Shown here in pieces: positions 2,598 to 62,119 of a DNA stretch of 64,000 nucleotides (within the stretch, counting starts at the first letter, position 1; every line of letters begins with the position of its first letter). The notes under the pieces were generated by a model. That model was not told the DNA's origin, ran no database searches, and saw nothing but the letters and a program-made list of their open reading frames with translations. This DNA is from Alphaproteobacteria bacterium (GTDB taxonomy: Bacteria; Pseudomonadota; Alphaproteobacteria; Rs-D84), in the NCBI GenBank assembly GCA_017616785.1, contig JAFZXK010000012.1:32004-96003 (forward strand), read 5' to 3'. The position numbers and the translations under genes are program-made.

Positions 2598-3353
2598 ATG
2601 GCGGGATTCAATCATTTTGCATCTGAAAACATTGGGCTTTCGGTCCTTGGGCATTTGGTTGTTTTGTGCGTCTTGGTTTTTATTGCGAGTGTGGTTATTG
2701 GCGAACGCGAAAGGTTTGTTGCACCCGATCGGATTCAGATAATGATGATAGATTTAAGCCAGGTAAAGGTTACCGGGGACGAGTCCGTTTTGTATAATAC
2801 TAATGTTCCGGACAAAGATGAGAAAAAGGAAGAAAAACCCGCGGAACCAAAGCCAAAACCGGAACAAGATGCCGCGGTAAAAACGGAACAAAAGATTGAA
2901 ACGCCGACTGTTATGCCCGAAGAAAAACCGGCGGAAAGGGACGATGCGAACCCAAAGGAAGAAAAGCCCGATGATAAGCCGGCGACGGTTAAAAAGACCG
3001 TAATTCGTGTGAATCGAAACACGACTTCGTTGCATACGGGACTGGCCATTTCGATTATTGATGCGTTGCGGTATAAAATGACGCGTTGTTGGGTGATTGA
3101 TACATCGCGTCCGGATATTTCGGGTATTCGTGCGGTCGCGCATTTAACGATGCGGACAAATGGAACGGTTGCGAATGTATGGTTCGAAGGTGCGTCAAGG
3201 GCGGAATCTGATCCGGCGTTTGCATATGTGCTGGATACAATCCGTGCGGCAATAAATGCGTGCCAACCCCTGGACATGTTGCCGCGTGAAGAATATAAAA
3301 CATGGCGTGAGATTCAACTGACATTCTATCCGGCGCAGGGAACGGTGATGTAG
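2598..3353 (+). CDS. tolA: TolA-like protein (N-terminal TM anchor, Lys/Glu/Pro-rich linker, C-terminal domain)
   Basis: 251 aa. TM helix, then a KEEKPAEPKPKPEQD low-complexity spacer, then a globular C-terminus. Positioned after tolQ-tolR. Confidence 0.6.
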   Translation: MAGFNHFASENIGLSVLGHLVVLCVLVFIASVVIGERERFVAPDRIQIMMIDLSQVKVTGDESVLYNTNVPDKDEKKEEKPAEPKPKPEQDAAVKTEQKIETPTVMPEEKPAERDDANPKEEKPDDKPATVKKTVIRVNRNTTSLHTGLAISIIDALRYKMTRCWVIDTSRPDISGIRAVAHLTMRTNGTVANVWFEGASRAESDPAFAYVLDTIRAAINACQPLDMLPREEYKTWREIQLTFYPAQGTVM

Positions 3354-3375
3354 TGGTTAGTGTTAGTGTTAGTAC

Positions 3376-3400
3376 GCGGGGCAAAAGCCCCGCGTTTGTT
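3376..3400. terminator. bidirectional rho-independent terminator (GCGGGGC-AAAA-GCCCCGC plus T tract)
   Basis: Perfect 7-bp GC stem with a 4-nt loop, flanked by T tracts. Lies between convergent tolA (+) and the exported-protein gene (-). Directly preceded by a GTTAGTG heptamer run (3354-3375). Confidence 0.7.
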
Positions 3401-4227: not shown

Positions 4228-4429
4228 CCACTACCCCGCGGCATGTTATGCCGCACCCCTTCGCCCGGCGAAGGGGATCGATCCCCTTTCCCGCGGAAAG
4301 GGGCGGCGCCGAACGGCGACGGGGTATGGGTCCGTCTACGCTTTGCTCCGCCGAGACTAAGTCCATTGGCGCTTTGCGCCACCACTACCCCACCGCGTCC
4401 CGCGGTCCCCCCCTTCGCCCGCGAAGGGG
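4228..4429. repeat. cluster of five GC-rich stem-loops (CCCCTTCGCC...GGCGAAGGGG family) downstream of rnpB
   Basis: Hairpins at 4238-4254, 4256-4276, 4283-4303, 4368-4380 and 4407-4429. Direct repeat CCACTACCCC at 4228 and 4382. GC content far above the local average. Confidence 0.6.
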
Positions 4430-4457
4430 AATAAAAAATCGTCCCCGGACGGGGACG
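4430..4457 (-). terminator. intrinsic terminator of rnpB (CGUCCCCG-GAC-GGGGACG plus U8)
   Basis: Hairpin at 4440-4457 and an A tract at 4431-4438 on the plus strand, which is a U tract on the minus-strand transcript. Confidence 0.7.
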
Positions 4458-4461
4458 GATT

Positions 4462-4798
4462 GCCGTGATAGCCGAATGATAAGCCGGATTCTGTTCCGCC
4501 CATATTCAGTGTTGTTCCGGCGCGTTCAACACCAAACAAATGGGTGGCAGGCATAATTAATCTGTGCAATGTGTTACCACAAAGCATCAAGCCCTCTACC
4601 CGTTTCCGATTTGGGACGATCATTGGAAACCTATTTGAAGTTGCTGCACACAGAGATTGCCCGTTTCACCCGGGTTAAACCCGTATCGTCACTGTTGCTC
4701 TAATCGTCAGATTGCTCTGCCCGGTGATTGGCCGGTGTGTTGTCCCAATGCAGTCCGGACTTTCCTCCGCCACGGAAAAAGTTGCGACGGCTATGCCT
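4462..4798 (-). ncRNA. rnpB: RNase P RNA, bacterial type A
   Basis: Minus-strand sequence contains GGAGGAAAGUCCGGACUGCA (CR-I, P4 5' strand). It also has GGGUGAAACGGGC, CAAAUAGG...GGGUAGAGGGCUUGAUGC and ACAGAAUCCGGCUUAUC (CR-V), in the same order as E. coli M1 RNA. 5' AUAGCCG can pair with 3' CGGCUAU (P1). Followed by an intrinsic terminator. End coordinates are approximate (+/- 10 nt). Confidence 0.8.
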
Positions 4799-4816
4799 TT
4801 ATTCAACTATTCGTGA

Positions 4817-10900: not shown

Positions 10901-13900
10901 GCAATATGGTGGAAACAATACAACGCAGAATTTTGATATTATTGCGACGGTGGGCAGTTATAGCGGTGTGTTGGATAGTGCAAAATGTTTGCCACGGACT
11001 TATAGCATAGATTATCAAAATGTAACCGAACATGGTGGAACTTTGCCGGCGGGGACGATTGATACATATACATATGGGGTTGAGACGGAGGTTAATGCTG
11101 TGCCGACATCACCATCAGAGAATTTTGAATCATGGTGCACGGGCTATGATGAATCAACGGGTGTATATTCGGGCTGTGCCACGACACAGACGATACCTGA
11201 TACGACATATGGTGATAAACCATATTATGCAAAGTGGGCTGGGTGTAAAACGGGATACAGAACCTATAATTATGATGTTCGGGTTACAGCCGATTATGAT
11301 AATCAAAGCCATGAATATCTTGCGGGGGCTTGTGCGCCTGGGAATTATGTGGTTACTTGTAACAAAAATTGTCCGGCGGGTGAAACATGTAATGCGTGTT
11401 TGGAAGATATCTTTTCGCAATATCATTTGGGTCAAAGATATGGTGTTTATTCACAACAGTGGGAAACGCAGGTCGGTGTAGTCGGGGCCTTGGGGGCGGT
11501 TTTGCCACATGGTTCAGGTTCACAATATTTACCATTTGGGGGGGATGAATATGGACAAAGTGGAGATACAAGTTTTGGAATAAGACCTTTATATTCTTAT
11601 AATGGGATTGGTGCAGGAACAGATCCTTTGGACATGCCCGCTAGTAGCATCTTTATGCAAAATGATTATGTTGCTTATATGACTGCTTTGACACAATTGA
11701 ATAACAAAACATTTGGAACAAGTCACTATGACTTTAACGGTTTATGGACAGATGCGACATCAGAAGATAGTCAGTATAGATATTTACCGACGGTAAATGG
11801 AACAACGCCGTGGTCGCAACGAAATGCGGATGGCAAGGCTCTTTCGAAATTCTTTACATCTGATGCGACGGTCTATGCGCATTGGATACCGCATGTTTAT
11901 AGTGTGAAATTGATGCGGAATCACAGCAGCACGGATTATAACCAAAAAGGGACTTTGTATGAAGAATACGGAAATGGTTGGAACAATGCGAATACTGGCA
12001 CATTTGGTACGAATTATCAGTTGCCCAGTGATTTAATTCCGTCATGGACCGGATATACATTTAGTGGGTATTGGACTACACGCGATGATAGTGGAACCCA
12101 GTTAGTCGCAAAAGTGAACAATGCATGGACAGTTACAGCAGATGCAAAGACACTTGTTGATAACAACGCAAAATGGTATGCACATTGGACACCGAAACAG
12201 TTCACGATTACATTGGATAATGCGGATGCTTTGGTTAATGGAACGGCGTCTTTGACATCAATATATGATTCGGGTGCGTATTTAAATGTTGATGGCACGT
12301 TGACGTTGATGGATAAAGATAATGGACCGGCGATTACCCTGCCCGAACATAAATATACTGTTTCGTTTGATTTGAATTATAATGGTGCACCGAATGGGCC
12401 GGCTACTCAGTATCCTGGGTGGACGTTTAATGGATATTTTAGTGCGTCATCAAATGGAACAAAGTATATCGCCGCGGATGGTAAGATTACGCAGAGTGGT
12501 ACAGATAAAGCAAAAATACTTACGGCAAACGCCACATGGAATGCACAATGGACACAGGTTGCAAATTTGACTTTGCCGGACGTTTATAACTCTGGTGCGG
12601 GGTATTTTGGACAACCGGGGTATGTTTTTATCGGATGGTGGACAACGTCGAATGAGAATGCCGGGACAAGTGTTGGTGTCAATGGCGATACATACGATGC
12701 TGCACAAAATCAAACGCTAAATCAAACGCTGTATGCGCAGTGGAGACCGTGTAGTTATACCGGTGCCACAGGTGCCACGAGTGTTTCGGTAGCGACAAGT
12801 GATCTTAATGCATGTGTTTATACGATAACTTGTCCGGCCAACTATACGTGTGAAGGAAATAATTGTGAGATTATTGGTGAACCCGATAGTTATGCGACCG
12901 TTACTTTGCCGGATTGTGTTGGTGCGGGTCATACCATCACATATTATGATAATCCAGCGTATGGGACGAATGTTGAGTTGAATACGCAATCATATACTTA
13001 TAATCCAAATGGGTCTGTGACGTTGAATCCAGATTTGAACAACACTGTTTACGATGATCATCATGCCGCGTCTGTTCAATGGTGTGATATAGATGGTAAT
13101 AATTGCGTGACACAAATTGCACCACAAAATCAGACTGGCGACATAGCACTTTATGCAAAATGGACTTGTGCGACGGGGTATACGTCAACGTATACATTTG
13201 ATGCTCAGGTTGCAGAATATGGCAGCAATAGCGGATTTGTTGAATTTAATGCTGGGATGTGCGCTCCAAAACGTTATCGTATAATATGTGATAAAAATTG
13301 CCCAACGTATACATCAGATGGGCAAACGGTAACAGAAAGTTGCAATGCGTGTTTGGAAGATTTTAGTTTGCTTCAAGCGGGGACTGTTGGGAAATATAGC
13401 TGGGGGTATTTGTATAATTCTAGTTTGTTTGATCCTAATGGGGCGTTGGAATCTTCTCAGGTTCCCGTGCCTGTGTATTCGGTAAATAGCACCCTAGGCG
13501 ATTTTATGCTTTTTACGACAACACCAAAATATGAACATTTATACCTGTGGCCGGTTCCGTTAGATGAAAATGCTAGTTTGCTTGGTGCACTTAATACTGG
13601 AAACTATAAGACGTTTATGATGGCGCTTGCCAACGAACAGTACAACAGTAGTCTCGACTTTGGAGCGCAACATTATACTTTTGATGGTTTATGGACCGCG
13701 GCCAGTGATGGAGAAATTTATATTAATGCCAATGGTTGGGTGGCAGGACCAAACAATACAGATTCAGAAATGCATAGCGAAGTTGCCTCAAAGTCCTTTA
13801 CATCAGATACAGATGTCTATGCGCATTGGGACCCGAAAGTATATGATATTACTTTGGACCCCGATGATGGAACCCCGGGTGGCAGTATGAGTGGTACAGT

Positions 13901-27685: not shown

Positions 27686-27710
27686 AAAACCGGGCATTCG
27701 CCCGGTTTTT
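27686..27710 (+). terminator. intrinsic terminator of the giant gene (AAAACCGGGCATTCGCCCGGTTTTT)
   Basis: GC stem plus T tract 27 nt after the stop, followed by a GTGTTAGTGGGG heptamer motif. Confidence 0.65.
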
Positions 27711-27909
27711 GTGTTAGTGGGGACACTTTTTTCGTCATCCCGCGCGCCGACGCGGGATCTTGTTGTTTTCGTTGAAGTCCAGCAAGATACCGCTTTGCAG
27801 CGGTATGACGGGAAAAACGACAAGGCCCGGTTTTTTGTGTTAGTGTTAGTGTTAGTGGGGCGACACCCCCGGCGGTTCCGCCGGACCCTTCTAGGCAGAG
27901 GGGAACTTG

Positions 27910-27958
27910 CACTAACCACCCGTCGCGGCACGCCGCGCCGCGGTCGTGACGGACTTAC
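27910..27958 (-). repeat. 49-bp dispersed GC-rich repeat element, copy 1 (inverse orientation of copy at 53752-53800)
   Basis: 48 of 49 identity with the reverse complement of 53752-53800 (GTAAGTCCGTCACGACCGCGGCGCGGCGTGCCGCGACAGGTGGTTAGTG). Confidence 0.8.
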
Positions 27959-28014
27959 ACTATACATCATACCCCGTCTGCTGCGCATCCACCCCTTTCC
28001 ATGGGAAAAGGGGA

Positions 28015-28227
28015 TTATTTTGTTCCCATTGTTTTGGCGGATTTAAGTGCGGCGCGTAACGATTCGCGTGCAATCTCTTTTATGCGGCCCGAAAAAGTGC
28101 GCATATTCATCGAATCTGCAAAGTTTTTGGTAAATATGTTCGCAATATATTCGACCTGCGCCGGCGAAATCATAAAAATATCACTGGATATGTCATTGAT
28201 ATCAAGTTGTTTTATCGGTGTTTTCAT
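28015..28227 (-). CDS. small hypothetical protein (70 aa), convergent with the giant gene
   Basis: RBS-like 'gaaaagag' before the ATG. Its 3' flank carries the same hairpin plus 49-bp element plus GTTAGTG arrangement seen after gpmI, which argues it is a real transcription unit. No family recognised. Confidence 0.4.
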   Translation of the reverse strand: MKTPIKQLDINDISSDIFMISPAQVEYIANIFTKNFADSMNMRTFSGRIKEIARESLRAALKSAKTMGTK

Positions 28228-38902: not shown

Positions 38903-41900
38903 ATGTTCAAAGGTTGGAAATTTTTGACCAGTTTTTGCGTTATGTTCGCAACGCTTTGTGGCGGGGCGTATGGCGCGGCAAGTGTTCGCGGTGGTGCGAC
39001 CGGACGTGCCGGTTCGCTTAGGACGCTTGGTGGCGGGACGAGTGCGACGGTCAAAACAAATGCGAACCAACCTGCCCCGTCGGTTGCGGTGACGGGCGAC
39101 GCGTCTGTGGCCGATTCGCCGCGTATGGTTACGGGAATTAGCACCGGACGGACGAAACTAAATCTTGCCTCGACCACGGGAACATCAGGTGGCCAGAACC
39201 TTAGTGAATTGCGCCAGGCCATAGAACAATTGCGTAATGATTATGATGCGTTGGATGAACGGTATAACACTTTGTTGGGTGATGTATCAAATGTGTCTGA
39301 TACGGCGCAAAATGCGAATTTAACGGCGGAAAGCAATGCAAACACACTTGTCGTTGTGCGTAGTGATTTGAACGATGCACAATCGGATCTTGCGGTTTTA
39401 AAGGCCGCCGGCGGTTTTGACGAAGCGCGTGTTCAACAAACGGTCGAAGGTGTCTTGGATGCCAGGGATTATGCGACACAATCGCAATTGGCGGCGACCG
39501 ATGTTGTGGCGCGTGGCGCGGTGCAATTGAACGATTTGTCGCAAAAATTAGATGCGTTGAATATTGCGGACCGGGATTATGTTGACACTATGGTTGCAAC
39601 TGGTATGAGTGACACCAGGGTCCAAGGTATTGTGAACGATTCGCTTAATAACACCATGGCGAATTACTATACGAAAAAGCAAGTTAATGATGCGATTAAT
39701 ACCGCAAAGGACGGTATGGTTGACAAAGATTATGTTGATTACCAGGTTCAAACCAGTATCGGTGACAAGGCGTCATACACTTATGTTGACCAAAAGGTTG
39801 CAACGGGCATGAACGAGGCCCAAGTCCAAGGTATTATCGGCAATGTGCTTGGTGGTACATTGGAAAATTATTATGATAAGGGGACGGTTGATTCCTTGGT
39901 CGATGCCGCCGTTGTGGACGCAAAAAATGGCATGGTGGACAAGGACTATGTTGATAATCAGGTTCGCGATATGGCGTCCAAAGATTGGGTTAATAATAAA
40001 ATCGCGGATATTGAAATCGGGGTCGATGAGTATGAAATTCGAAACATACTTGCCCAGGGTGACTATAAGACGGGTACACAGGTTGAAGGTATCGTAACAG
40101 ACGCACTTAATGGTGCACTTGGGAATTATTATACCCGGCAACAGGTTAACAAGGCAATTAGTGATGCCAAAGAGGGTATGGTTGGTATGGACCAACTTAA
40201 TTATCAACTTAGCGGTTTGGCACCAAAAAGTTGGGTGACCACCCAAATTGATAGTGCTGTTACAGACCTTGATTTTGGGTTGAACAGGGATGCGGTAAAG
40301 GCTGTGGTTGAAGAGTATGGATATAAAAATGAAAATGATGTCCGGGGTATTATAACTGGTTATGGTTATGTAAAAGAAACCGATATTCCAGACCTGGTTA
40401 ATCAATGGGCACCGGGCGCAGAGATACAATACGCGGACGGGAAGTTATATTTCGTGGATAAAGACGGAAACGATAGGGTCGTTGATATTCGCGGGCTGGA
40501 TGGGCAAGATGGTGCCCAGGTTGAACTTCAAAAGAATGGTGACGTGATTCAGTGGCGTTATGCCAGTGGAAATGACCAATCGTGGCATAACCTTGTTAAT
40601 TTGTCTGACTTGCGGGGGGCGGATGGCAAGTCAGTTGAATTTAGTGTTCAGCCCTATGGTCAGATAAAAGAAGCATTGGGGTATACAAAAGAAGGCGAAT
40701 CGAATTGGCAATTTTTATATAACCTTGACGATATAAATGGCACCGATGGGTGCGGGGTTCGGGCGACCCAGGTACCGGTTGACGGCGGAATATTGGTAAA
40801 ATTGTTACGCGATTGTGCGGGGCAACCGGGTGATGGGGATTTGTTAACGCAATTTACTATTTTGAACGGCGCCGATGGAACGGTGACGGATGAGCAAATT
40901 ATTGACGCGATGATGACCAGTCCGGAATTCATACAATTAATGCAAGTAAAGAACAAAGTTAATGATTCGGAAAAAGGTTTGGATGCCACATATAATTTGG
41001 CGCGTATGACGGCAAATGCGGTTGATGATGATAAAACGGGGCTTGAGGCAACATATGAATTGGCAAGTAACGCATGGGACAAGGTAAAAGATTTGGATAC
41101 AAATGTTACGACCAAGGATTATGTTGACAGTTATGTTAACGGGAAAATTGGTGAGTTAGATTATAACCCGGCAACATATGCAAAATTTGCAAGTGTTGGT
41201 GCTAAGTTGGGCTCTATTGGGAACATGACCGTGAAGGATTATGTTGATGAAAAGGTCCGTGGAATCACGACAGAGATCATGGTTGATAAAGGGACCGACG
41301 GTTTTACATACATCTGTAAAAATGGTAATACATGTGCAAATAAGCCAAATTATTGGGATAATGAATGGGAACGTATTGATGTTGATTTGACTGGTTATCT
41401 TAAACAGGAAACCGCAGATAATTTGTATGCATCTTTTGGAACCGAGGTTGTCGCGCGTGATGCCGCCACCGCCGCGACCAATGCCCAAACCACGGCGAAT
41501 AATGCATGGAATAAAGTGAAAGATTTGGGAGATGGTGTTACGGTTAGTGATTATGTCGATGAAAGAATCGGGACCATGGGATTTGACATGCTAACTGGTG
41601 ATGAATATACTGTTGCGAAAAAAATTGGCCTTGATGATCGCCAATACGGAAGCATGTCGGTAAAAGAGTATGTTGATAAAAAGGTTTCTGATGTTAATAC
41701 GAGTATTCAAATAGGTTCTTATAATAATCAAACATATATTTGCAAGCATAATGATTGCAAAACTCCTGCGGGACCGTATTATCCCGAAGATTGGGCGTTG
41801 ATTTCTGTGGACTTGTCGGGTTATCTTACAAGGAACGATGCAGAACGAGAGTTCGCATCGATTGAAACGGAATCCATAGCGGGTGCGGCACAGAATGCCG

Positions 41901-52282: not shown

Positions 52283-53755
52283 ATGAAAAAGACGGTTGTT
52301 TTGTGTATCTTGGACGGTGTCGGTTACAGCGAAGCGCGCGCGCATAATGCGGTGGTGCGTGCCAAGATGCCTTTTTTTAACGGATTGTTGCGGAAATATC
52401 CAAATTCGCTTTTGCGGGCGTCGGGAACGGCGGTTGGGTTGCCGGGAAATTTAATGGGTAATTCCGAAGTTGGACATATCTGTATTGGCGCCGGGCGCGT
52501 GGTTATGCAATATTTGTTGCGGTTTGCACGTGAAGATTGGAATTCGAATAAACCATTGAACAAATTTATCGCCGATGTTCGGCGTGACGGCGGAATTGTG
52601 CACTTTGCAGGTCTGATGTCCGACGGGCGGGTGCATTCGGATGTGCGTGACGAAATGAAAATCGTAAAGTATATTTTGGATGCGGGCCTAAAAGTATGTA
52701 TTCATTTTATGGGCGATGGACGCGATACACCCCCGCGATCGGCACTTAAGTATGTGCGTGTAATAAAGCGGATGCTGGCACCGTATTTCGCCGATGGACG
52801 CGTGTGGTTTGGGACCTTGTCCGGCCGGTACTATACGATGGACCGAAACAATAATATGGATCGAACGGAACTCGCGTTTAATGCGATTGCAAATGCACAT
52901 GGCGGTGCACATGCCGATACAATTGAAGACGCAATAAAAGATTCCTATGCGGCCGGCGTTACAGATGAATTTTTCAAACCGACGATTATAAAGCCAACAC
53001 CAATTTCGGCGCGCGATGGGTTTGTTTTTGGCAATTATCGCAGTGACCGTGCGCGGCAAATCGTTCGTGTAATGTTGCGGACCGGTGCACACATATTGTG
53101 TTTTTCGCAATATGGTGAGGGGTTAAATGAAAAATGCCCTGCACTGCTTTCTGATATTCCGGTTGAAAATACACTTGGTGATGTTGTTGCGGCGGCGGGA
53201 CTGACGCAGTTGCGCATCGCGGAAACCGAAAAGTACAACCATGTGACTTATTTTATGGATGCGGAACGAACAATTGATTTCAATGGCGAAGAAAAAGTGC
53301 TGATTGATTCGCCGGCGGTCGCGACGTTTGATATGAAGCCCGAAATGTCGGCACCGGAAATAACGGCGGCACTTTTACCACGCATTGGAAAGTTTGATGT
53401 TGTTATGATGAACTTTGCCAATGGCGATATGGTCGGGCATACCGGGAACGAGGTCGCAACCGTTAAAGCCATGGAATGTTTAGATAAACAATTGGCGCAG
53501 ATTGTGCCGGCGGTACTGGCGGTCGGTGGGCAAATGCTGATTATCGCGGACCATGGTAATGCGGAAAAAATGTGGGACGATAAAAATAATGTCCCATGGA
53601 CGGCACATACCAATAATAAAGTTCGTGCGATTTTGGTGTCTGAACCACCATATAGAAAAATCAAAAACGGTGGCCTGGCTGATGTTGCACCAACGATTTT
53701 GAAGTTATTAGGCGTGTCGCAGCCGGCGGATATGACGGGGAAGAGTTTAGTGTAA
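52283..53755 (+). CDS. gpmI: 2,3-bisphosphoglycerate-independent phosphoglycerate mutase
   Basis: 490 aa. N-terminal VLCILDGVGYS and NFANGDMVGHTG motifs, which bind the metal and phosphoserine in iPGM. Confidence 0.9.
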   Translation: MKKTVVLCILDGVGYSEARAHNAVVRAKMPFFNGLLRKYPNSLLRASGTAVGLPGNLMGNSEVGHICIGAGRVVMQYLLRFAREDWNSNKPLNKFIADVRRDGGIVHFAGLMSDGRVHSDVRDEMKIVKYILDAGLKVCIHFMGDGRDTPPRSALKYVRVIKRMLAPYFADGRVWFGTLSGRYYTMDRNNNMDRTELAFNAIANAHGGAHADTIEDAIKDSYAAGVTDEFFKPTIIKPTPISARDGFVFGNYRSDRARQIVRVMLRTGAHILCFSQYGEGLNEKCPALLSDIPVENTLGDVVAAAGLTQLRIAETEKYNHVTYFMDAERTIDFNGEEKVLIDSPAVATFDMKPEMSAPEITAALLPRIGKFDVVMMNFANGDMVGHTGNEVATVKAMECLDKQLAQIVPAVLAVGGQMLIIADHGNAEKMWDDKNNVPWTAHTNNKVRAILVSEPPYRKIKNGGLADVAPTILKLLGVSQPADMTGKSLV

Positions 53756-53800
53756 GTCCGTCACGACCGCGGCGCGGCGTGCCGCGACAGGTGGTTAGTG
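53752..53800 (+). repeat. 49-bp dispersed GC-rich repeat element, copy 2 (immediately after the gpmI stop)
   Basis: See copy 1. In both copies the element lies directly downstream of a stop codon in the sense orientation of that gene. Confidence 0.8.
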
Positions 53801-53828
53801 ATAGTGAAAAATCCCGCAAACGTAGGAT

Positions 53829-55906: not shown

Positions 55907-56533
55907 ATGGCAATTGAATTAAAAGCAGAGATTCGCAATGTTGCTGGCAAGGGGGCCGCGCGTGCAATTCGTAATAACAAAAATATCCCCGCCGTTATCT
56001 ATGGTGAAAAGAAAGACCCGGTCGCAATTGAAATTTCCGGTCGTGATTTTGCACCTATTGTCGTGATTCCGGCGTTACGAACAAAACTTTTTCATATTAC
56101 AATCGGTAAAGGCACCGAAGACGCCATGTTGATGGATATTCAATATCATCCGGTTACTGATAAAATCGTTCATGTTGATTTCAAACGCATCGATGTTAAA
56201 AAGCCGGTTTGCGTATCCGTTCCGGTAGAGGTTATAAATGCCGATATTTCCAAAGGTCTTAAACTTGGTGGCGTTTTGAACTTTGCGGTGCGTAAAGTTG
56301 CGCTTGTCGCATTGGTTGATAAGTTGCCGGAGAAAATCGTCCTTGATTTGGCGGATTTGACAATTGGCGACACCGTTCACGGGTCCGATTTGGTTTTGCC
56401 GGATGGCGTGTCATTGGGCCTGCACCAGGCGGAATTGGCATTTGCGACCATCGGTGGTAAGATGCCAGAAGAAGCCGATGCTAAGAAACCAGCGGCGGCA
56501 ACCGCGGCGCCTGCGGCACCAGCAAAGAAATAA
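55907..56533 (+). CDS. rplY: 50S ribosomal protein L25 (general stress protein Ctc form, 208 aa)
   Basis: ORF begins at 55829, but the RBS 'aaaaaggataaaaaaATG' gives a start at 55907. MAIELKAEIRNVAGKGAARAIRNNKNIPAVIYG matches the L25/Ctc N-terminus. Long C-terminal extension with an Ala/Pro-rich tail. Confidence 0.88.
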   Translation: MAIELKAEIRNVAGKGAARAIRNNKNIPAVIYGEKKDPVAIEISGRDFAPIVVIPALRTKLFHITIGKGTEDAMLMDIQYHPVTDKIVHVDFKRIDVKKPVCVSVPVEVINADISKGLKLGGVLNFAVRKVALVALVDKLPEKIVLDLADLTIGDTVHGSDLVLPDGVSLGLHQAELAFATIGGKMPEEADAKKPAAATAAPAAPAKK

Positions 56534-56565
56534 TATAGTGTTAGTGGTTAGTGTAAGTGTTAGTG

Positions 56566-56597
56566 AAACGGCGCGTAATGCGCCGTTTTCATTTTTT
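56566..56597 (+). terminator. intrinsic terminator after rplY (AAACGGCGCG-TAAT-GCGCCGTTT plus T tract), flanked by inverted GTTAGTG/CACTAAC runs
   Basis: 9-bp stem. Left flank has GTTAGTG repeats (56537-56565). Right flank has their reverse complement (56598-56636). Confidence 0.65.
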
Positions 56598-56652
56598 CGC
56601 TAACCACTTCCCACTAACACCAACATATTCCACTAATTTTTATTCCTATGGT

Positions 56653-56680
56653 CTTGAAATGGTAAATCGGCTAACTATAT
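56653..56680 (+). promoter_or_regulatory. putative RpoH (sigma32)-type heat-shock promoter upstream of dnaK (CTTG-N18-CTATAT)
   Basis: Matches the alphaproteobacterial sigma32 consensus CTTG-N17-18-CYTATNT. Located ~35 nt upstream of the dnaK RBS 'aataggagtgaaaaATG'. Confidence 0.5.
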
Positions 56681-56714
56681 TTGTGGCATACAAGAAAAAA
56701 AATAGGAGTGAAAA

Positions 56715-58610
56715 ATGGGAAAAGTATTAGGTATCGATTTGGGAACCACAAATTCGGCCATGGCCTTTATGGACGGAAATGACCCGAAAATTATTGAAAA
56801 CGCCGAAGGTGGTCGGACGACCCCGTCGGTTGTTGCAATTACGAATAATGGCGAACAGTTGGTTGGTATTACCGCCAAGAACCAGGCCGTTACAAATCCG
56901 GAAAATACGATATATGAAATTAAGCGTCTTATGGGTTTGCGCTTTGATAGCCCAGAGGTGCGCGAAATTATGAAGCGTGTGCCGTATAAGATTGTCCCGG
57001 GTGACAATGGTGATGCGTGGGTTGAAATTGATGGCAAAAAATACGCCCCGTCGCAGATTTCGGCGATGATTCTTAGCAAACTTAAAAAAGACGCCGAAAA
57101 TTACCTTGGCGAAGCGGTAACCGATGCGGTTATTACTGTGCCGGCGTATTTCAATGACTCGCAACGTCAGGCAACCAAAGACGCCGGTCGTATTGCAGGC
57201 TTGAACGTTTTGCGTATTGTGAACGAACCGACCGCGGCCGCGTTGGCGTATGGTTTGGATAAAAACAAAGATGGAACGATTGTGGTCTATGACCTTGGTG
57301 GTGGAACGTTCGATGTGTCGGTCTTGGAAATTGTTGACGGCGTGTTCGAAGTGAAATCAACCAATGGTGATACGGCGCTTGGCGGGTCTGATTTTGATGC
57401 GCGCGTGTTGAAATATCTGATTGATGAATTCAAATCGCAAACTGGCATTGATTTGTCGAACGACAAATTGGCGTTGCAGCGGTTAAAGGAAGCCGCCGAA
57501 AAGGCAAAAATTGAACTTTCGTCCAAGATGTCGACCGAAATCAACCTGCCCTTTCTTACGGCGGATGCGTCGGGCCCAAAACATTTCAATATAACACTGA
57601 CACGTGCAAAGTTGGAATCTTTGGTTGATGATTTGATTCAGCGCACAATTGAACCTTGCAAAAAGGCGTTGAAAGACGCGGGTATCGAAAAATCGCAAAT
57701 CAACGAGGTTATCTTGGTTGGTGGTCAAACCCGTATGCCCAAAGTTGTGGAAACGGTCAAGGAATTCTTTGGTCGTGAACCGCACAAGGGTGTGAACCCG
57801 GACGAAGTGGTTGCACTGGGTGCCGCGATTCAAGGGGGCGTGTTAAAGGGCGATGTCAAAGATGTATTACTTTTGGATGTTACGCCATTGTCACTTGGAA
57901 TTGAAACATTGGGCGGTGTGTTCACGCGTCTTATTGACCGCAATACAACGATTCCGACCAAAAAGTCCCAGGTGTTCAGTACCGCCGAAGATAATCAATC
58001 GGCCGTAACTATTCGCGTATTCCAAGGTGAACGCGATATGGCGGCGGATAATAAATTGCTTGGTCAATTTAATTTGGAAGGTATCGCGCCGGCGCCGCGT
58101 GGCATGCCACAAATCGAAGTGTCTTTTGATATCGATGCGAACGGCATTGTTCATGTGTCGGCCAAAGATAAAGGTACCGGCAAAGAACAGGCGATTTCGA
58201 TTAAATCTGATGGTGGATTGTCCGAAGACGAAATTAAACGCATGGTTGACGAAGCCGCCGCAAATGCCGACGCGGACAAGAAAAAACGCGAACTGGCCGA
58301 GGCCAAGAATAATGCGGAGGCCGCAATCAATATGATTGAAAAGTCGTTAAAAGAACATGGTGATAAAATCGGCGCGGATGATAGGGATGCCATTGAAAAA
58401 GCCAAGAAGGAATTGGCGGACGAATTGGCAAAATCCGACGCAACCGCGGAATCTTTGAAACAAAAGACCGAAGGGTTAACCGAAAAAGCTATGAAACTTG
58501 GCGAAGCGGTGTACAAGGCGCAACAAGAAGCGCAAAATGCCGCGGGCGAAAGTTCGGATAATAACCAATCCGACGGTGCGCGCGATGCGGACTTTTCGGA
58601 AAAGAAGTAA
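56715..58610 (+). CDS. dnaK: molecular chaperone DnaK (Hsp70)
   Basis: 631 aa. [17 protein letters not shown] and the full Hsp70 ATPase and substrate-binding domains. Confidence 0.98.
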
Positions 58611-58642
58611 GTGAGTGGTTAGTGTAGGTGGATAGTGTAAGT

Positions 58643-58666
58643 GAACCCGCCCAAATGGGCGGGTTT
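58643..58666 (+). terminator. intrinsic terminator after dnaK (AACCCGCCCAAATGGGCGGGTTTT)
   Basis: Perfect 8-bp stem plus T run. Preceded by a GTGAGTGGTTAGTGTAGGTGGATAGTGTAAGTG heptamer run. Confidence 0.7.
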
Positions 58667-58738
58667 TATGGTATAAAAGTTAGATACGTTCAATTTGCTT
58701 TTTGAATATAATTGAAAAAAATATTACAACACAAAACC

Positions 58739-58958
58739 CGCGGGAATCCGCGGTTTTTTGTGTTTTGGGGTGGTATAAAAAAACCAAGGTTTTTAGTCAA
58801 CCACTTTTTTCAAAAAATCAAAAATTTTTTTCATAGTAAAAACAATAGATTACAAATTTTGCCATTTCCGCCGTGGTGGTGTAAAAAAAACCTTGGTTTT
58901 TTTATACCACCCCAAAACACAAAAAAACCGCAGATTCCCGCGGGTTGTATCACGAAAT
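58739..58958. mobile_element. MITE-like element: ~62-bp near-perfect inverted repeats flanking an ~85-bp AT-rich core
   Basis: Left arm 58739-58805 is the reverse complement of right arm 58890-58958 with 1-2 mismatches (...cccgcgggaatccgcggttttttgtgttttggggtggtataaaaaaaccaaggttttt). No ORF. Each arm contains a CCGCGG-centred hairpin. Confidence 0.55.
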
Positions 58959-59076
58959 TCTTTTTTAAATTATGTCGGGAAAAACAAGCCGGGCGCTTTC
59001 GCGCCCGCTGTCGCGGCTCCGCTTTGCGGAGACGGATAGCCCCCGTCCACCGAAGCCCAACGGGCGAAGGCGGAAC

Positions 59077-59844
59077 TTACACTAACACTGCCCCATACAA
59101 GACCGCAAAAAAGAAACAAACACTGCCGCCGATTACGAACAAATGCCAAATCGCATGCGAAAATTTCATACGGCGCCAAAGATAAAAAATAACCCCAATT
59201 GAATACGACAATCCGCCCGCCAAAATAAACCACAATCCCCGCGCCGGCACATACCGCAACATCGCCGGCAAAATGAACACCAATGTCCACCCCATAATCA
59301 AATAAAGCGCGACAACCCACTTTGGCTGTTGCCGCGGATTACGAATTTTGACTATCGCGCCCCAAATCACAATCGCCCACAAAATGCCAAATACCGTCCA
59401 ACCCAAACCGCCCCGCAAATTCACCAACAAAAACGGCGTGTATGTGCCGGCAATCAACGCATAGATGGCGACACTGTCCCAGACCTCGAAAAAACATTCG
59501 CTTTTGCGACCAATTGTTATGTGGCACATTGTCGAACCGAAATAAAGCGTGAACATTGTCGCGCCAAAAATTGCACACGACACCACCGACCAAACATTTC
59601 CATAAATCGCCGCAAAAACGACCAAAAGTGTCAAACCCGCAATGGCAAGTCCGATACCGATTCCATGTGTCAGAACATTTAATAATTCTTCGCCGCGTGT
59701 TGACCGCCGTTCCCACCGAAAAAGTCCCGTCGCACGCAGGCACCGCAACAACCGCGACGCATGCCGGTCGCCACGAACCTGTTTTAATCGCGTTCTAACA
59801 ACTTTACGATTTTTTGTCATCGGCACCCGCCATTTCAAATTCAC
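59077..59844 (-). CDS. hemolysin-III / PAQR family channel protein
   Basis: 255 aa with 7 TM segments and motif EELLNVLTHGIGIGLAIAGL, typical of the HlyIII family. The start is probably the internal Met at 59820. Confidence 0.8.
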   Translation of the reverse strand: MNLKWRVPMTKNRKVVRTRLKQVRGDRHASRLLRCLRATGLFRWERRSTRGEELLNVLTHGIGIGLAIAGLTLLVVFAAIYGNVWSVVSCAIFGATMFTLYFGSTMCHITIGRKSECFFEVWDSVAIYALIAGTYTPFLLVNLRGGLGWTVFGILWAIVIWGAIVKIRNPRQQPKWVVALYLIMGWTLVFILPAMLRYVPARGLWFILAGGLSYSIGVIFYLWRRMKFSHAIWHLFVIGGSVCFFFAVLYGAVLV

Positions 59845-60511
59845 AAAGTTTTATCGGTTCAATTTTCACATCGGAAAAATCGCCCCGCATATTTTTGATT
59901 TTCGTTATATATTCCGGCTTTCCCATCATATCTTCCAACACAAGACGTTGATTTACAAAATGCGTGCCACCAAATATAACAAAAACGGTATCCCATTTAT
60001 TCAAAGCCACCACAATATTTTGCAACATAAATCTATCCCTCTGTCGCAGCAACCAAATATACTGTTCATGTTGTTGTTCCGTGTGGTCTTTCGGCATTAA
60101 AATATTATGCAAATCGGAATCAACAATCTGGTTGTTTGGAAAACGACTATTTACAACATCCATCATTTGCTCTCTTGATAAATCTATAAAAACAAGCGGA
60201 ATATTCTTTTTCGCCGCGACCCCTGCCGCATGTGTAAGATCACTGTCTTGGTACCCATGCGGAGAAAATTTACGTTCAAACCCAACGTTTTCCATTTCGC
60301 ACAATAAAACATCCGGTTTTATCGGAAAATCATCAGAAAGACACATCTCTGACATATCAAAAGCTATATTTGCTCTGTGGTCATCACACATACAAACCAA
60401 CGTTTTATTTTCCCGATGAAAAATCGCGATACATAAACGATCCCCAGTAATATTTATCAACTCTTTGGAATTTACTGTGCGCAACAAATCAAAATTTGGT
60501 TTAAATTGCAT
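59804..60511 (-). CDS. hypothetical protein, possibly TraB/GumN-family-like (tentative)
   Basis: 235 aa. C-terminal VFVIFGGTHFVNQ resembles the TraB/GumN 'G[AT]xHL' region. Overlaps gltX by 11 nt and the HlyIII gene start. Confidence 0.55.
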   Translation of the reverse strand: MQFKPNFDLLRTVNSKELINITGDRLCIAIFHRENKTLVCMCDDHRANIAFDMSEMCLSDDFPIKPDVLLCEMENVGFERKFSPHGYQDSDLTHAAGVAAKKNIPLVFIDLSREQMMDVVNSRFPNNQIVDSDLHNILMPKDHTEQQHEQYIWLLRQRDRFMLQNIVVALNKWDTVFVIFGGTHFVNQRLVLEDMMGKPEYITKIKNMRGDFSDVKIEPIKLCEFEMAGADDKKS

Positions 60512-61961: not shown

Positions 61962-62119
61962 CGCGCCATCGGGCAAATTGCGCGGCGGGAATTTTTCCTC
62001 TAATTCCGCCAAAGTATATTTCGGTGCGGCGCCCAAAACGCGTGCGATTAAATCTTCGGTCAAACCTGTCCTCATATCAAATCCTTGTGTTTTCAATATA
62101 TGCATTTTATACTAATAAT

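What the first reader, a model, noticed from the sequence alone, without database searches (positions are those of the whole stretch)
3351..3375. Family of (GTTAGTG)n-type heptamer runs placed immediately after stop codons; stops in all three frames
Directly after the stop codons of tolA (3351-3375), the giant gene (27711-27722 and 27837-27860), gpmI (53749-53808), rplY (56534-56565), dnaK (58611-58642) and, on the minus strand, the HlyIII gene (59060-59090) sit 2-4 copies of GTTAGTG / GTGTAAGTG. Each is always in the sense orientation of the upstream gene and always followed by a GC-rich hairpin terminator. A 7-nt unit cycles through all reading frames, so three copies place a TAG/TAA in every frame. 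This acts as a built-in fail-safe terminator for read-through or frameshifted ribosomes. It also defines a species-specific 3'-end element. The related terminators CCGCCCAAATGG(G)CGG after dnaK and after the 829-aa gene belong to the same system.
Basis: seen in the sequence. Interest (0 to 1): 0.6.

Follow-up and report, generated by a model that had tools for sequence, protein, structure and literature searches.

The report
Terminator-flanking GTTAGTG repeat arrays
One group of uncultured gut bacteria (Candidatus Enterousia) marks the ends of many transcription units with short imperfect arrays of a (G)TTAGTG unit placed against terminator hairpins; the arrays are real and non-random, but they are a variant of the poorly understood heptamer repeats known from other bacteria, not a dedicated three-frame stop-codon device.

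Summary
The runs exist at every cited coordinate and are far beyond chance (34 arrays against 4.6 in shuffles). The window is a Candidatus Enterousia genome, and the arrays are confined to one clade of that genus. Each array has 2-6 imperfect units: an almost invariant AGTG core plus a C-free spacer of 2 or 3 nt, so the step is a 6/7 mix, not 7. Of 44 arrays, 28 are flush with or overlap a protein gene's stop codon. Four follow the terminator of RNase P RNA or of the giant gene, where nothing is translated. Twelve are mirror copies beyond the hairpin, just upstream of the next promoter. Orientation follows the transcription unit and points at a GC-rich hairpin (37/44). Stops in all three frames occur in only 8 of 19 arrays. 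The anchor site at tolA has stops in one frame only. Full frame coverage is no commoner than a random 6/7 mix gives. Adjacent units are almost never identical (2/85), unlike slippage microsatellites. A 35-nt mobile palindrome inserts precisely into the AGT^G core. Best reading: a selection-maintained terminator-flanking single-strand element whose stop codons are a by-product. The closest relatives are the Xanthomonas/Nostoc heptamer repeats, the Beggiatoaceae TAACTGA repeats and REP/BIME.

The parts
3351..3373 (+). Array after the TolA-like gene: TAGTG GTTAGTG TTAGTG TTAGT. The gene's TAG stop (3351-3353) is the first unit.
   Evidence: The array is conserved at the same site in L209, L211 and L212 and absent in L210 and L213.
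3374..3395 (+). Terminator hairpin ACGCGGGGC-AAAA-GCCCCGCGT followed by a T-rich tail, starting right after the array.
   Evidence: the hairpin is the only stable element in the centroid fold.
27711..27719 (+). One and a half units (GTGTTAGTG) placed after the T-tract of the giant-gene terminator (hairpin 27686-27709).
27837..27857 (+). Array GTG TTAGTG TTAGTG TTAGTG (pure 6-nt steps) after a T6 run, followed by the hairpin CCGGCGGTTCCGCCGG.
27905..27965 (-). Minus-strand units TAGTGTAAGT and GGTTAGTG flanking a 35-nt GC-rich palindrome (27918-27952). This is a 93% copy of the element at 53745-53805.
   Evidence: (I2).
53745..53757 (+). Units TTTAGTG TAAGT at the end of gpmI. The TAA stop (53753-53755) lies inside the second unit, and the last two codons (Leu-Val) are encoded by the first.
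   Evidence: The same arrangement occurs in L004, L012 and L094.
53758..53792 (+). 35-nt palindrome CCGTCACGACCGCGGCGCGGCGTGCCGCGACAGGT inserted between AGT and G of an array core.
   Evidence: 5 copies in 4 species, all with AGT on the left flank and 4 of 5 with G on the right.
53793..53806 (+). Remainder of the gpmI array (GGTTAGTG ATAGTG), followed by a weak hairpin shared with the convergent deaminase gene.
56534..56565 (+). Five-unit array after rplY (stop TAA 56531-56533): TA TAGTG TTAGTG GTTAGTG TAAGTG TTAGTG.
   Evidence: An array is present at this site in at least 10 related species.
56565..56589 (+). Terminator hairpin GAAACGGCGCG-TAA-TGCGCCGTTTT followed by a T-tract.
56600..56636 (-). 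Degenerate mirror array (plus strand reads CTAACCACTTCCCACTAACACCAAC..CCACTAA) between the terminator and the dnaK promoter. It pairs with 56534-56565 into a long outer stem.
   Evidence: -42.2 kcal/mol, z -8.3; present upstream of the dnaK promoter in all clade members.
58608..58643 (+). Array after dnaK: TAAGTG AGTG GTTAGTG TAGGTG GATAGTG TAAGTG. The TAA stop (58608-58610) is the first unit.
58644..58666 (+). dnaK terminator hairpin AACCCGCCC-AAAT-GGGCGGGTT.
59077..59090 (-). Two units GTGTTAGTG TAAGT at the end of the HlyIII gene. The TAA stop (59077-59079) is inside the second unit. GC-rich palindromes and a terminator (58990-59007) follow.

Best explanation
The runs are a clade-specific repeat that flanks terminators and is oriented with transcription.

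Anatomy (shown). Each array has 2-6 imperfect units. A unit is an almost invariant AGTG core preceded by a C-free spacer of 2 or 3 nt (TT, GTT, TA, ATT and others). The array always reads 5'->3' towards a GC-rich hairpin. It fills the untranslated space at the edge of a transcription unit in one of three ways: flush with or overlapping the stop codon of a protein gene, after the T-tract of a non-coding RNA gene, or as a mirror copy beyond the hairpin and directly upstream of the next promoter.

Mechanism (inferred). The array is read as a single strand, most probably in the RNA. It offers a non-pairing, C-free shoulder carrying several (U)AGUG sites next to the terminator. This would serve as a platform for a single-strand-binding factor and/or keep the hairpin free to fold. 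Where a mirror copy exists, read-through RNA can pair the two arrays into a much stronger outer stem followed by a T-tract. That would be a nested second terminator insulating the next promoter.

Stop codons. The unit carries stops on both strands (TAG/TAA/TGA in sense, TAA in CACTAAC). This is why the array can abut or replace the stop codons of genes on either side, and it gives only partial, incidental fail-safe termination.

Kind. It is a variant of the heptameric intergenic simple-sequence repeats of Xanthomonas, Nostoc and Beggiatoaceae. In this genome it is also embedded in a REP/BIME-like population of GC-rich palindromes, one of which uses the AGT^G core as its insertion site.
For: - Non-random and clade-restricted: 34 arrays against 4.6 in shuffles. 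They occur only in the clade around the window in a dnaK tree of 80 species.
- Orientation follows the transcription unit, not replication. L150 has three arrays in alternating orientation within 3 kb, each after its own gene. In L209, the argS(-), tolA(+) and rnpB(-) arrays each follow their own unit.
- Hairpin adjacency: a fold of dG <= -10 within 40 nt 3' of the array in 25/28 cases, mostly starting 0-5 nt away, against 9/28 on the 5' side; 37/44 at <= -9 in the enlarged set.
- Independent of translation: arrays follow the RNase P RNA terminator in L209, L211 and L212 and the giant-gene terminator. Mirror arrays lie upstream of the dnaK and ompA-like promoters.
- Position-specific constraint: interior AGTG cores are intact in 94 cases against 7 degenerate, while spacer positions match the consensus only about 70% of the time.
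- Unlike slippage products: adjacent identical units number 2/85 against 6.5 in within-array permutations (P = 0.0005). Steps of 6 and 7 alternate, 74 mixed against 27 same.
- Retention: arrays persist at orthologous sites (rplY, dnaK, gpmI, tolA) in species whose dnaK DNA is only 81-88% identical, while the adjacent hairpins are replaced.
- The mirrored module folds to -42.2 and -48.1 kcal/mol, z about -8.
- In centroid folds of mRNA 3' ends the tolA array stays unpaired and the dnaK array is mostly unpaired, and the terminator hairpin forms in both.
- The same positional rule holds for Xanthomonas and Nostoc heptamers: G-rich strand on the coding strand just after or overlapping the stop, or on the non-coding strand upstream (PMC4692102).
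Against: - There is no expression, 3'-end or binding data, and no candidate binding protein was identified.
- About half of the convincing terminators in the same genome lack arrays (SecA, the 829-aa gene, rnpB in the window, L083 and L086 sites).
- Several species inside the clade have lost the arrays at dnaK and tolA without obvious replacement. Any function is therefore dispensable.
- Mirror copies lie beyond the inner T-tract, so they enter RNA only on read-through. The T-tract after them is also part of the conserved promoter-upstream region.
- One array (L150 7480-7510) has no adjacent terminator hairpin.
- The analogous Xanthomonas repeats showed no detectable regulatory role (PMC4692102).
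- The sample is a few syntenic regions in related species, so the counts are not phylogenetically independent.
- The genome's strong sense-strand GC skew (+0.15 to +0.28) could by itself favour G/T-rich, C-poor spacers.
Confidence: 0.4

Rival explanations
1. REP/BIME-like selfish repeat system. The arrays are tandem copies of the recognition or target sequence (AGT^G) of a single-strand DNA transposase (RAYT / IS200-IS605-type, or similar). This enzyme moves small GC-rich palindromes. Arrays and hairpins accumulate together at transcription-unit ends, where single-stranded DNA and hairpins form and insertions are tolerated. Any terminator role is secondary.
For: - A 35-nt palindrome occurs 5 times in 4 species at different loci. 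The left flank is always AGT and the right flank is G in 4 of 5. Removing the element restores a perfect array.
- Other GC-rich palindrome families sit next to arrays: CGTCATACCGGCGAAAGCCGGTATC and CCCCTTTCC..GGAAAGGGG.
- Many arrays end in a truncated AGT directly abutting a hairpin.
- Hairpin types are swapped between species at one site.
- From my own knowledge: E. coli REPs carry a conserved 5' GTAG next to the hairpin, lie at gene 3' ends and occur in inverted pairs.
Against: - No transposase gene was seen, but only about 2% of each genome was sampled.
- The terminator hairpins next to arrays are diverse in sequence, unlike a REP family.
- No mechanism is evident that would build 6/7-nt tandem arrays from such insertions.
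- Being a target of a mobile element is equally expected for any abundant, harmless motif.
- Core conservation and the avoidance of identical neighbouring units suggest constraint on the array itself.
Confidence: 0.2
2. Neutral simple-sequence repeat. Polymerase slippage on a 6-7-nt unit created arrays that survive only where they do no harm, between a stop codon and a terminator. Their G/T-rich, C-free sense strand reflects the genome's strand-biased mutation.
For: - Heptamer repeats are the commonest long simple-sequence repeats (SSRs) in bacteria and have been attributed to slippage (Mrazek 2007 as cited in PMC4679880; PMC4692102).
- The distribution is lineage-specific, with patchy losses.
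- Sense-strand GC skew is strong.
- Units with stops on both strands cannot invade ORFs.
- One array is a perfect (TTAGTG)3 at 27837-27857.
Against: - Adjacent identical units are strongly avoided (2/85; P = 0.0005).
- The core is far better conserved than the spacer.
- Arrays persist at orthologous sites across species with 81-88% dnaK DNA identity, in genomes under 1 Mb with about 90% coding.
- Orientation towards hairpins is strict.
Confidence: 0.15
3. One reading: a built-in fail-safe translational terminator that places a stop codon in every reading frame for read-through or frameshifted ribosomes.
For: - 116 of 131 units carry TAG, TAA or TGA.
- 28 of 44 arrays are flush with or overlap a protein gene's stop.
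- 15 of 19 give a second in-frame stop.
- One array supplies the stop codons of both convergent genes, der and a bamB-like gene.
- The base after each in-array stop is G or T, never C. From my own knowledge this is the favourable context.
Against: - All three frames are covered in only 8/19 arrays, and both shifted frames in 10/19. The anchor site covers one frame.
- Six-nt steps predominate, and full coverage is no commoner than chance (12 against 14 expected).
- 16 of 44 arrays lie where nothing is translated.
- Operon-internal genes and about half of the unit ends lack arrays.
- A sister lineage's array lacks sense-strand stops.
- There is no extra conservation of the stop-forming T.
Confidence: 0.1
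4. A DNA-level polar or uptake motif: a KOPS/Chi/Ter-like sequence oriented with replication, or a DNA uptake sequence concentrated in terminators.
For: - In the window the G-rich strand is on the leading-type strand on both sides of a GC-skew sign change at about 58.7 kb. Four of the six sites lie within 5 kb of it.
- From my own knowledge: uptake sequences in Neisseria and Haemophilus often form inverted pairs in terminators.
Against: - Orientation alternates within 3 kb following gene direction (L150, L209).
- Single copies inside genes are not enriched: 6 against about 4 expected per strand.
- The motifs are tandem, which is unlike KOPS, Chi or uptake sequences.
- No dif-like site was found near the skew switch.
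Confidence: 0.04

Closest known systems
Heptameric intergenic simple-sequence repeats of Xanthomonas (GGGAATC) and Nostoc/Anabaena (GGGGA(C/T)T, the STRR class) (Rehm et al. 2015, PMC4692102; Mrazek et al. 2007)
   Same: - Short arrays of about 3-6 copies of a roughly 7-nt unit, strongly intergenic.
- The G-rich strand lies on the coding strand 0-50 bp after the stop codon, including overlaps with it, or on the non-coding strand upstream of genes.
- Inverted pairs occur.
[quoted passage not shown]
- There is no functional theme among the flanking genes, and the function is unknown.
   Different: - The unit has no G-tracts, so no G-quadruplex can form.
- The step is a 6/7 mix with an invariant AGTG core and variable spacers.
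- Neighbouring units are almost never identical.
- Nearly every unit carries a stop codon.
- Arrays are immediately adjacent to an intrinsic-terminator hairpin.
- The core is the insertion site of a small palindrome.
TAACTGA direct repeats of marine Beggiatoaceae, some Cyanobacteria and Bacteroidetes (MacGregor 2015, PMC4679880)
   Same: - Heptamer arrays of 2-6 copies in intergenic regions.
- Stop codons in the forward orientation, so arrays can overlap ORF ends only marginally.
- A post-transcriptional protein-binding role has been proposed (S1, Csp, CsrA) but not shown.
   Different: - TAACTGA arrays lie mainly a few nucleotides upstream of start codons, not at 3' ends next to terminators.
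- Their units are perfect heptamers.
- They are found across distant phyla.
REP/BIME elements of enterobacteria and pseudomonads with their RAYT transposases
   Same: - Located at gene 3' ends and between convergent genes.
- Palindromic hairpins preceded by a short conserved motif (GTAG there, (T/A)AGT here).
- Inverted arrangements; roles in termination and mRNA 3'-end protection; targets for other mobile elements.
   Different: - Here the conserved part is a tandem array outside the hairpin, and the hairpins are diverse.
- No RAYT gene has been seen.
- Copy number per genome is unknown.
Multi-(N)AG RNA sites of TRAP (11 G/UAG triplets, 2-3-nt spacers) and HutP (UAG triplets, 4-nt spacers) in Bacillus
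   Same: - Arrays of a short invariant core ((U)AG...) with variable spacers of 2-4 nt, giving a period of 5-7.
- Read as single-stranded RNA, placed against a terminator hairpin whose formation they control.
   Different: - Those sites lie in the 5' leaders of single operons and have a known ring-shaped binding protein.
- Here the arrays are at the 3' ends of many unrelated units, in an alphaproteobacterium, with no known binder.
- The resemblance is anatomical only.
Tandem or three-frame stop signals (natural tandem stops; engineered three-frame stop linkers)
   Same: Stop codons packed immediately after the ORF; a second in-frame stop in 15 of 19 arrays.
   Different: Frame coverage is incomplete and no better than chance, and many arrays lie in untranslated places.

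Membership tests
Heptameric intergenic simple-sequence repeats (SSRs; long SSRs of 5-11-nt units) | Head-to-tail copies of a 5-11-nt unit, longer than chance allows | tested here: met
   TRF rows at 3351, 27837, 56536 and 58614. 34 arrays against 4.6 in shuffles.
Heptameric intergenic simple-sequence repeats (SSRs; long SSRs of 5-11-nt units) | Strong bias to non-coding DNA, close to the neighbouring ORF: on the coding strand downstream, on the non-coding strand upstream | tested here: met
   All 44 arrays are outside real coding sequence except for overlaps with stop codons. 28 are at stops in sense and 12 are mirror copies upstream of promoters.
Heptameric intergenic simple-sequence repeats (SSRs; long SSRs of 5-11-nt units) | Same site in related species, with variable length and sequence | tested here: met
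   The rplY, dnaK, gpmI and tolA sites compared across species.
Heptameric intergenic simple-sequence repeats (SSRs; long SSRs of 5-11-nt units) | Near-perfect repeats of one unit, as expected from replication slippage | tested here: not met
   Mixed 6/7 steps. Adjacent identical units 2/85 against 6.5 expected (P = 0.0005).
REP/BIME | An imperfect palindrome of 20-40 nt repeated many times with a conserved sequence | tested here: inconclusive
   One 35-nt palindrome has 5 copies in 4 species, and other GC-rich palindrome families were seen. The terminator hairpins beside the arrays are diverse. Genome-wide copy number is unknown.
REP/BIME | A conserved tetranucleotide at the 5' side of the hairpin | tested here: inconclusive
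   (T/A)AGT directly precedes the 35-nt palindrome in 5/5 copies and precedes many terminators. It is not the GTAG of known REPs.
REP/BIME | A cognate RAYT (Y1 transposase) gene in the genome | not testable with these tools
   Only about 20-kb pieces of each genome were available.
TRAP/HutP-type RNA-binding arrays | An invariant short core repeated with non-conserved spacers of 2-4 nt | tested here: met
   The AGTG core is intact in 94 of 101 interior positions. Spacers of 2 or 3 nt vary.
TRAP/HutP-type RNA-binding arrays | Lies against a terminator or antiterminator structure in a 5' leader | tested here: not met
   The arrays are adjacent to terminators but at the 3' ends of transcription units, not in leaders.
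TRAP/HutP-type RNA-binding arrays | A cognate oligomeric RNA-binding protein | not tested
   No candidate was searched for. Whole genomes are needed.
Fail-safe / tandem stop signal | An additional in-frame stop shortly after the main stop | tested here: met
   15 of 19 arrays. It is absent at the tolA anchor site.
Fail-safe / tandem stop signal | Stops in all three frames, more often than the repeat structure alone gives | tested here: not met
   8 of 19 arrays. Arrays with at least two 7-nt steps number 12 of 28 against 14 expected.
Fail-safe / tandem stop signal | Restricted to places that ribosomes reach | tested here: not met
   Arrays occur after rnpB terminators and upstream of promoters.
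Replication-polar motif (KOPS/Chi-like) or DNA uptake sequence | Orientation set by the replichore, or strand-independent with abundance inside genes | tested here: not met
   Orientation alternates with gene direction within 3 kb. There is no enrichment inside genes.

The most novel reading that the evidence does not exclude
The arrays are the cis half of a clade-wide 3'-end control system not yet described. An as-yet unidentified oligomeric single-strand-binding protein reads (U)AGUG sites spaced 6-7 nt apart on nascent RNA. It thereby tunes terminator efficiency, read-through or 3'-end stability at many unrelated transcription units, including RNase P RNA. This would be a global, 3'-end version of TRAP/HutP-type attenuation. 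It could also give a first functional handle on the unexplained heptamer repeats of Xanthomonas, Nostoc and Beggiatoaceae.
Probability: 0.15. Interest if true: 0.75.

Novelty: new variant of a known kind. Interest (0 to 1): 0.45.

Why it matters
Intergenic heptamer repeats are widespread in bacteria and their function has stayed unknown for more than 30 years. The Enterousia arrays obey the same positional rule as the Xanthomonas and Nostoc repeats but are easier to interpret. They occur in a genome under 1 Mb with little spare DNA. They lie hard against intrinsic terminators and have an invariant core with variable spacers. They avoid perfect tandem copies and also occur after a non-coding RNA gene. 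Together these features argue for selection on a single-strand recognition element rather than slippage debris or a translational safeguard. They also suggest concrete tests: finding a co-occurring protein, mapping 3' ends, and termination reporters. Practically, the arrays and the palindrome that targets them are clade markers. They are also likely causes of gene-end miscalls, because stop codons, and in gpmI and HlyIII the last two codons, are encoded by the repeat.

Tried and rejected
- Rfam scan of the window: only RNase P RNA was found; no family covers the arrays.
- Literal literature search for the repeat sequences: only unrelated eukaryotic oligonucleotides. A search for 'Enterousia' found nothing on repeats or terminators.
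- Metagenome pattern scan: 120 hits, nearly all pure hexamer microsatellites, many apparently within coding repeats. Only 3 loci were Enterousia-like (L094, L150, L185), so the pattern was too permissive for a census.
- Strain-level polymorphism: other assemblies of this organism are at least 99.97% identical (one 976-nt fragment, L088, 99.59%), so this says nothing about array stability.
- Extension of the same genome by 18 kb: no further arrays, so they are not at every transcription-unit end.
- Replication-polar motif: the GC skew flips at about 58.7 kb, but no dif-like site was found and array orientation follows genes in other loci. Rejected.
- A Rho-loading (rut) role for the complementary C-rich strand: considered from the positional rule. 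(CACUAA)n is poor in YC dinucleotides and the arrays are only 20-35 nt long. Not pursued.
- Shine-Dalgarno-like pairing with the 16S 3' end: only GUGAU in a minority of units. Rejected.
- CAAAGTT repeats in L060, L068, L080 and L082 lie inside a conserved coding region and are unrelated.
- A fuzzy-regex search for the palindrome timed out and was replaced by blastn-short.
Full report
**1. What the window is**

DnaK of the window is 96% identical to proteins of MAGs labelled Candidatus Enterousia or 'uncultured Alphaproteobacteria' from rumen and gut samples. According to PMC12306168, this is the uncultured order Rs-D84, whose genomes are mostly under 1 Mb.
- ruvB, a thioesterase gene, ExbB/TolQ, ExbD/TolR and a 251-aa TolA-like protein (TolA by position only; no Pfam domain);
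- a 7570-aa ORF;
- gpmI, L25 and DnaK;
- HlyIII on the minus strand.

Yes. Runs of (G)TTAGTG, TAAGTG, ATAGTG and TGAGTG units are present at every cited place, and TRF reports them with periods 6, 7 and 13. A two-unit pattern is about 50 times commoner than in shuffles. I defined an array as at least three AGTG cores spaced 6 or 7 nt apart. The window plus 82 related loci (1.45 Mb) then hold 34 arrays, against 4.6 (maximum 7) in shuffles.

Several details of the description are wrong.
- The step is a mixture of 6 and 7 nt (73:58), not 7.
- At tolA, gpmI, dnaK and HlyIII the gene's own stop codon is part of a repeat unit. In gpmI and HlyIII the last two codons (Leu-Val) are too.
- The two giant-gene runs lie after the T-tract of a terminator, 52 and 178 nt beyond the stop.
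- The gpmI stretch is two short arrays split by a 35-nt palindrome.
- Mirror-image copies (CACTAAC-type) exist at 56600-56636 and around 27905-27965.
- About half of the convincing terminators in roughly 82 kb of this genome have no run. These include SecA, the 829-aa gene, rnpB, and several in the 18 kb beyond the window ends.

**3. Distribution among relatives**

In a dnaK tree of 80 Enterousia species, arrays occur only in the clade that contains the window.
- They are dense in the nearest species (L004, L005, L009, L012; dnaK DNA 86-88% identical).
- They are patchy in the next tier (L007, L016, L021, L006, L014, L073).
- They are absent from about 55 more distant species.

At orthologous sites the arrays persist while unit order and number change. 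This holds after rplY in at least 10 species and after dnaK in at least 9. It also holds after gpmI in 4, and after the TolA-like gene in W, L209, L211 and L212 but not L210 or L213. Other species carry arrays at sites where the window has none, such as argS, gdhA and der. The hairpin next to the array is often a different GC-rich stem in each species.

Other lineages have their own period-7 arrays next to terminators. These are TAGAGTG (L030), CAGAGTG/CAAAGTT (L056) and GAGTAAC read on the other strand (L026, L027, L064). They share the AGTG/AGTW core but not the stop codon.

**4. Anatomy of the enlarged set**

The set contains 44 arrays and 182 cores.

*Position, after removing three spurious antisense ORFs by hand:*
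- 28 arrays are flush with or overlap the stop codon of a real protein gene, in sense. In about half of them the stop is inside the array.
- 4 arrays follow the T-tract of a terminator. Three of these follow RNase P RNA (L209, L211, L212; Rfam). One follows the giant gene.
- 12 arrays are mirror copies on the far side of the hairpin(s), ending 10-17 nt upstream of the -35 element of the next promoter. Examples are the dnaK sigma32-type promoter CTTGAAA-N16-CTATATTT and an ompA-like sigma70-type promoter.

In L003 the dnaK mirror copy travels with the promoter, although the upstream gene is different and the hairpin is gone.

*Hairpins.* 25 of the first 28 arrays have a fold of dG <= -10 kcal/mol within 40 nt on their 3' side, mostly starting 0-5 nt away, against 9 of 28 on the 5' side. 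In the full set, 37 of 44 have <= -9. A sense array, the hairpin and a mirror array together fold into one long stem of -42 to -48 kcal/mol with z about -8.

*Orientation* follows the transcription unit, not the replichore. L150 has three arrays in alternating orientation within 3 kb, each after its own gene. In L209 the argS(-), tolA(+) and rnpB(-) arrays each follow their own unit.

*Unit structure.*
- Interior AGTG cores are intact in 94 cases and degenerate in 7.
- The three preceding positions match the consensus (G-T-T) only about 70% of the time and almost never carry C.
- Steps of 6 and 7 alternate (74 mixed neighbour pairs against 27 like pairs).
- Neighbouring units are identical in only 2 of 85 cases, against 6.5 in within-array permutations (P = 0.0005).
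- There is no excess identity at lag 2, so the array is not a fixed 13-mer either.

**5. The three-frame-stop idea**

Most units do contain a stop (116 of 131). The frames, however, do not work out.
- Of 19 stop-adjacent arrays, 15 give a second in-frame stop, 10 have stops in both shifted frames, and 8 have all three.
- The anchor site (3351-3373) has TAGs only in frame +1.
- The rplY array leaves frame +1 open.
- Arrays with at least two 7-nt steps, the condition for the cores to visit all frames, number 12 of 28 against 14 expected from a random 6/7 mix.

The apparent preservation of stops in TAAGTG and TGAGTG units is explained by the general conservation of T at position -2. That T is just as frequent in TTAGTG, where the stop does not need it. 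Sixteen of 44 arrays lie where no ribosome arrives. The L056 lineage has a related array with no sense-strand stop.

The stop content still matters in one way. GTTAGTG carries TAG and its complement CACTAAC carries TAA. The array can therefore butt against ORFs on either strand, and even supply their stops. In L150 one 31-nt array provides the stop codons of both convergent genes, der and a bamB-like gene. I read this as a consequence, and a tolerance filter, rather than the selected function.

**6. A mobile palindrome targets the core**

The 35-nt element CCGTCACGACCGCGGCGCGGCGTGCCGCGACGGGT occurs five times: in the window at 27918-27952(-) and 53758-53792(+), and in L209, L010 and L021. The loci differ between species. 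The left flank is always AGT, and the right flank is G in 4 of 5 copies. Removing the element restores an uninterrupted array, for example TAAGT|G GTTAGTG. Other GC-rich palindrome families sit beside arrays. The arrays therefore live within a REP/BIME-like population of intergenic palindromes, and at least one of these uses AGT^G as its insertion site.

**7. What it most likely is and does**

*Shown:* a clade-restricted, non-random array with three properties. It is oriented with transcription and pointed at hairpins, it is independent of translation, and it has a constrained core with an anti-slippage unit pattern.

*Inferred:* strict strandedness argues for recognition as a single strand, either RNA or the non-template DNA strand. 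Core invariance with free spacers is the anatomy of a multivalent protein-binding site. From my own knowledge, TRAP sites are G/UAG triplets with 2-3-nt spacers, HutP sites are UAG with 4-nt spacers, and both lie against terminators.

The C-free composition keeps the 5' shoulder of the terminator largely unpaired in centroid folds of the tolA and dnaK 3' ends. Mirrored arrays would give read-through RNA a second, much stronger stem followed by a T-tract.

I put 0.4 on this family of explanations: a selection-maintained, terminator-associated single-strand element, with the effector unknown. Within it I lean to a protein-binding platform over a purely structural role, because a structural spacer would not need an invariant AGTG.

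*Rivals:*
- a REP-like selfish system in which the arrays are recognition or target repeats of a single-strand DNA transposase (0.2);
- neutral slippage debris (0.15);
- the fail-safe stop device (0.1);
- a replication-polar or uptake motif (0.04).

**8. Comparison with what is known**

Rehm et al. 2015 (PMC4692102) describe heptamers in Xanthomonas (GGGAATC) and Nostoc (GGGGA(C/T)T).
- They lie between the same genes in related species but vary in length.
- Their function is unknown.

This is the same positional rule as here. MacGregor 2015 (PMC4679880) describes TAACTGA arrays with stops in all forward frames, mostly just upstream of start codons. That paper cites Mrazek 2007 for the general excess of heptamer repeats.

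The Enterousia arrays differ in six ways:
- the mixed 6/7 step;
- the invariant core with variable spacers;
- the avoidance of identical neighbouring units;
- the tight coupling to intrinsic terminators;
- their presence after rnpB;
- their use as the target of a mobile palindrome.

I found nothing on these repeats in Enterousia. I therefore class the finding as a new variant of a known kind.

**9. Limits**

- All counts come from a few syntenic regions (around dnaK and around tolA) in related species, plus three independent loci, so the arrays are not phylogenetically independent.
- Gene models are my own longest-ORF calls, supplemented by the collection's calls.
- No transcript data, whole genomes or protein candidates could be examined.
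- The window's sequence around 58.9 kb differs from another assembly of the same strain. Conclusions about that junction should be treated with care.

Noticed in passing
window 27918-27952 (-) and 53758-53792 (+); also L209 10765-10799, L010 108-142, L021 7011-7045: A 35-nt GC-rich palindrome (CCGTCACGACCGCGGCGCGGCGTGCCGCGACGGGT) behaves as a tiny mobile element. It has five copies at different loci in four species. It is always inserted between AGT and G of a repeat core, with no obvious larger target duplication.
   Followed up: partly
window 58708-58973 and 56000-62000: An imperfect inverted repeat (arms 58708-58794 and 58887-58973) lies exactly where gene orientation and GC skew change sign (+0.15..0.25 to -0.14..-0.21). 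Another assembly of the same strain (L001) continues into a different gene after 58901, and L086 ends at 58886. This could be a repeated element, a rearrangement point or a terminus-like region. No dif-like site was found.
   Followed up: partly
window 4464-4810 (-): RNase P RNA gene (Rfam RF00010, 175.7 bits) with its own terminator (4440-4457). The ORF 4248-4556 listed mechanically overlaps it and is probably not a gene. In L209, L211 and L212 this RNA gene's terminator is followed by a repeat array; in the window it is not.
   Followed up: yes
window 56653-56681: A sigma32-type promoter-like sequence CTTGAAA-N16-CTATATTT lies upstream of dnaK, with a conserved TTTTTATTCCTATGG stretch before it. 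It is present in all relatives examined, even where the upstream gene differs.
   Followed up: partly
window 27966-28013 (-); L083 about 4480-4567 (-); window 4245-4314: Further REP-like GC-rich palindrome families occur directly after stop codons (for example CCCCTTTCC..GGAAAGGGGTGGATGCG.AGCAGACGGGGTATG). A CGTCATACCGGCGAAAGCCGGTATC family is seen in L185, L209, L211 and L212 and, diverged, at window 27785-27815.
   Followed up: no
L030 5967-5999 and 6284-6308; L056 1324-1355; L026/L027/L064 about 11920-11960: Other Enterousia lineages carry different period-7 arrays next to terminators and GC-rich palindromes: TAGAGTG, CAGAGTG/CAAAGTT, and GTTACTC (GAGTAAC on the other strand). They share an AGTG/AGTW core with the window's repeat.
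   Followed up: partly
L150 7480-7510: A single 31-nt array forms the whole junction between convergent der (EngA) and bamB-like genes. It supplies TAG to one gene and, through its complement CACTAAC, TAA to the other. There is no terminator hairpin between them.
   Followed up: yes
L090, L106, L154, L175 (marine metagenome contigs): A conserved arrangement in which (CACTAA)4-6 lies immediately upstream of an ATG (..CACTAACAAAAATGGCA..). This is a hexamer array in a 5' untranslated region of unrelated, low-GC marine organisms or phages.
   Followed up: no
window 26538-27217 and 39500-44100: The 3' end of the 7570-aa gene holds six or more copies of a 90-93-nt coding repeat. The 1846-aa gene (38903-44443) is built of many diverged coding repeats of about 100-430 nt.
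   Followed up: no
window 28021-28227 (-): A 68-aa ORF with no Pfam match converges on the giant gene. It has a plausible terminator (27992-28013) and may be the unit that the minus-strand repeat units at 27905-27965 follow.
   Followed up: no
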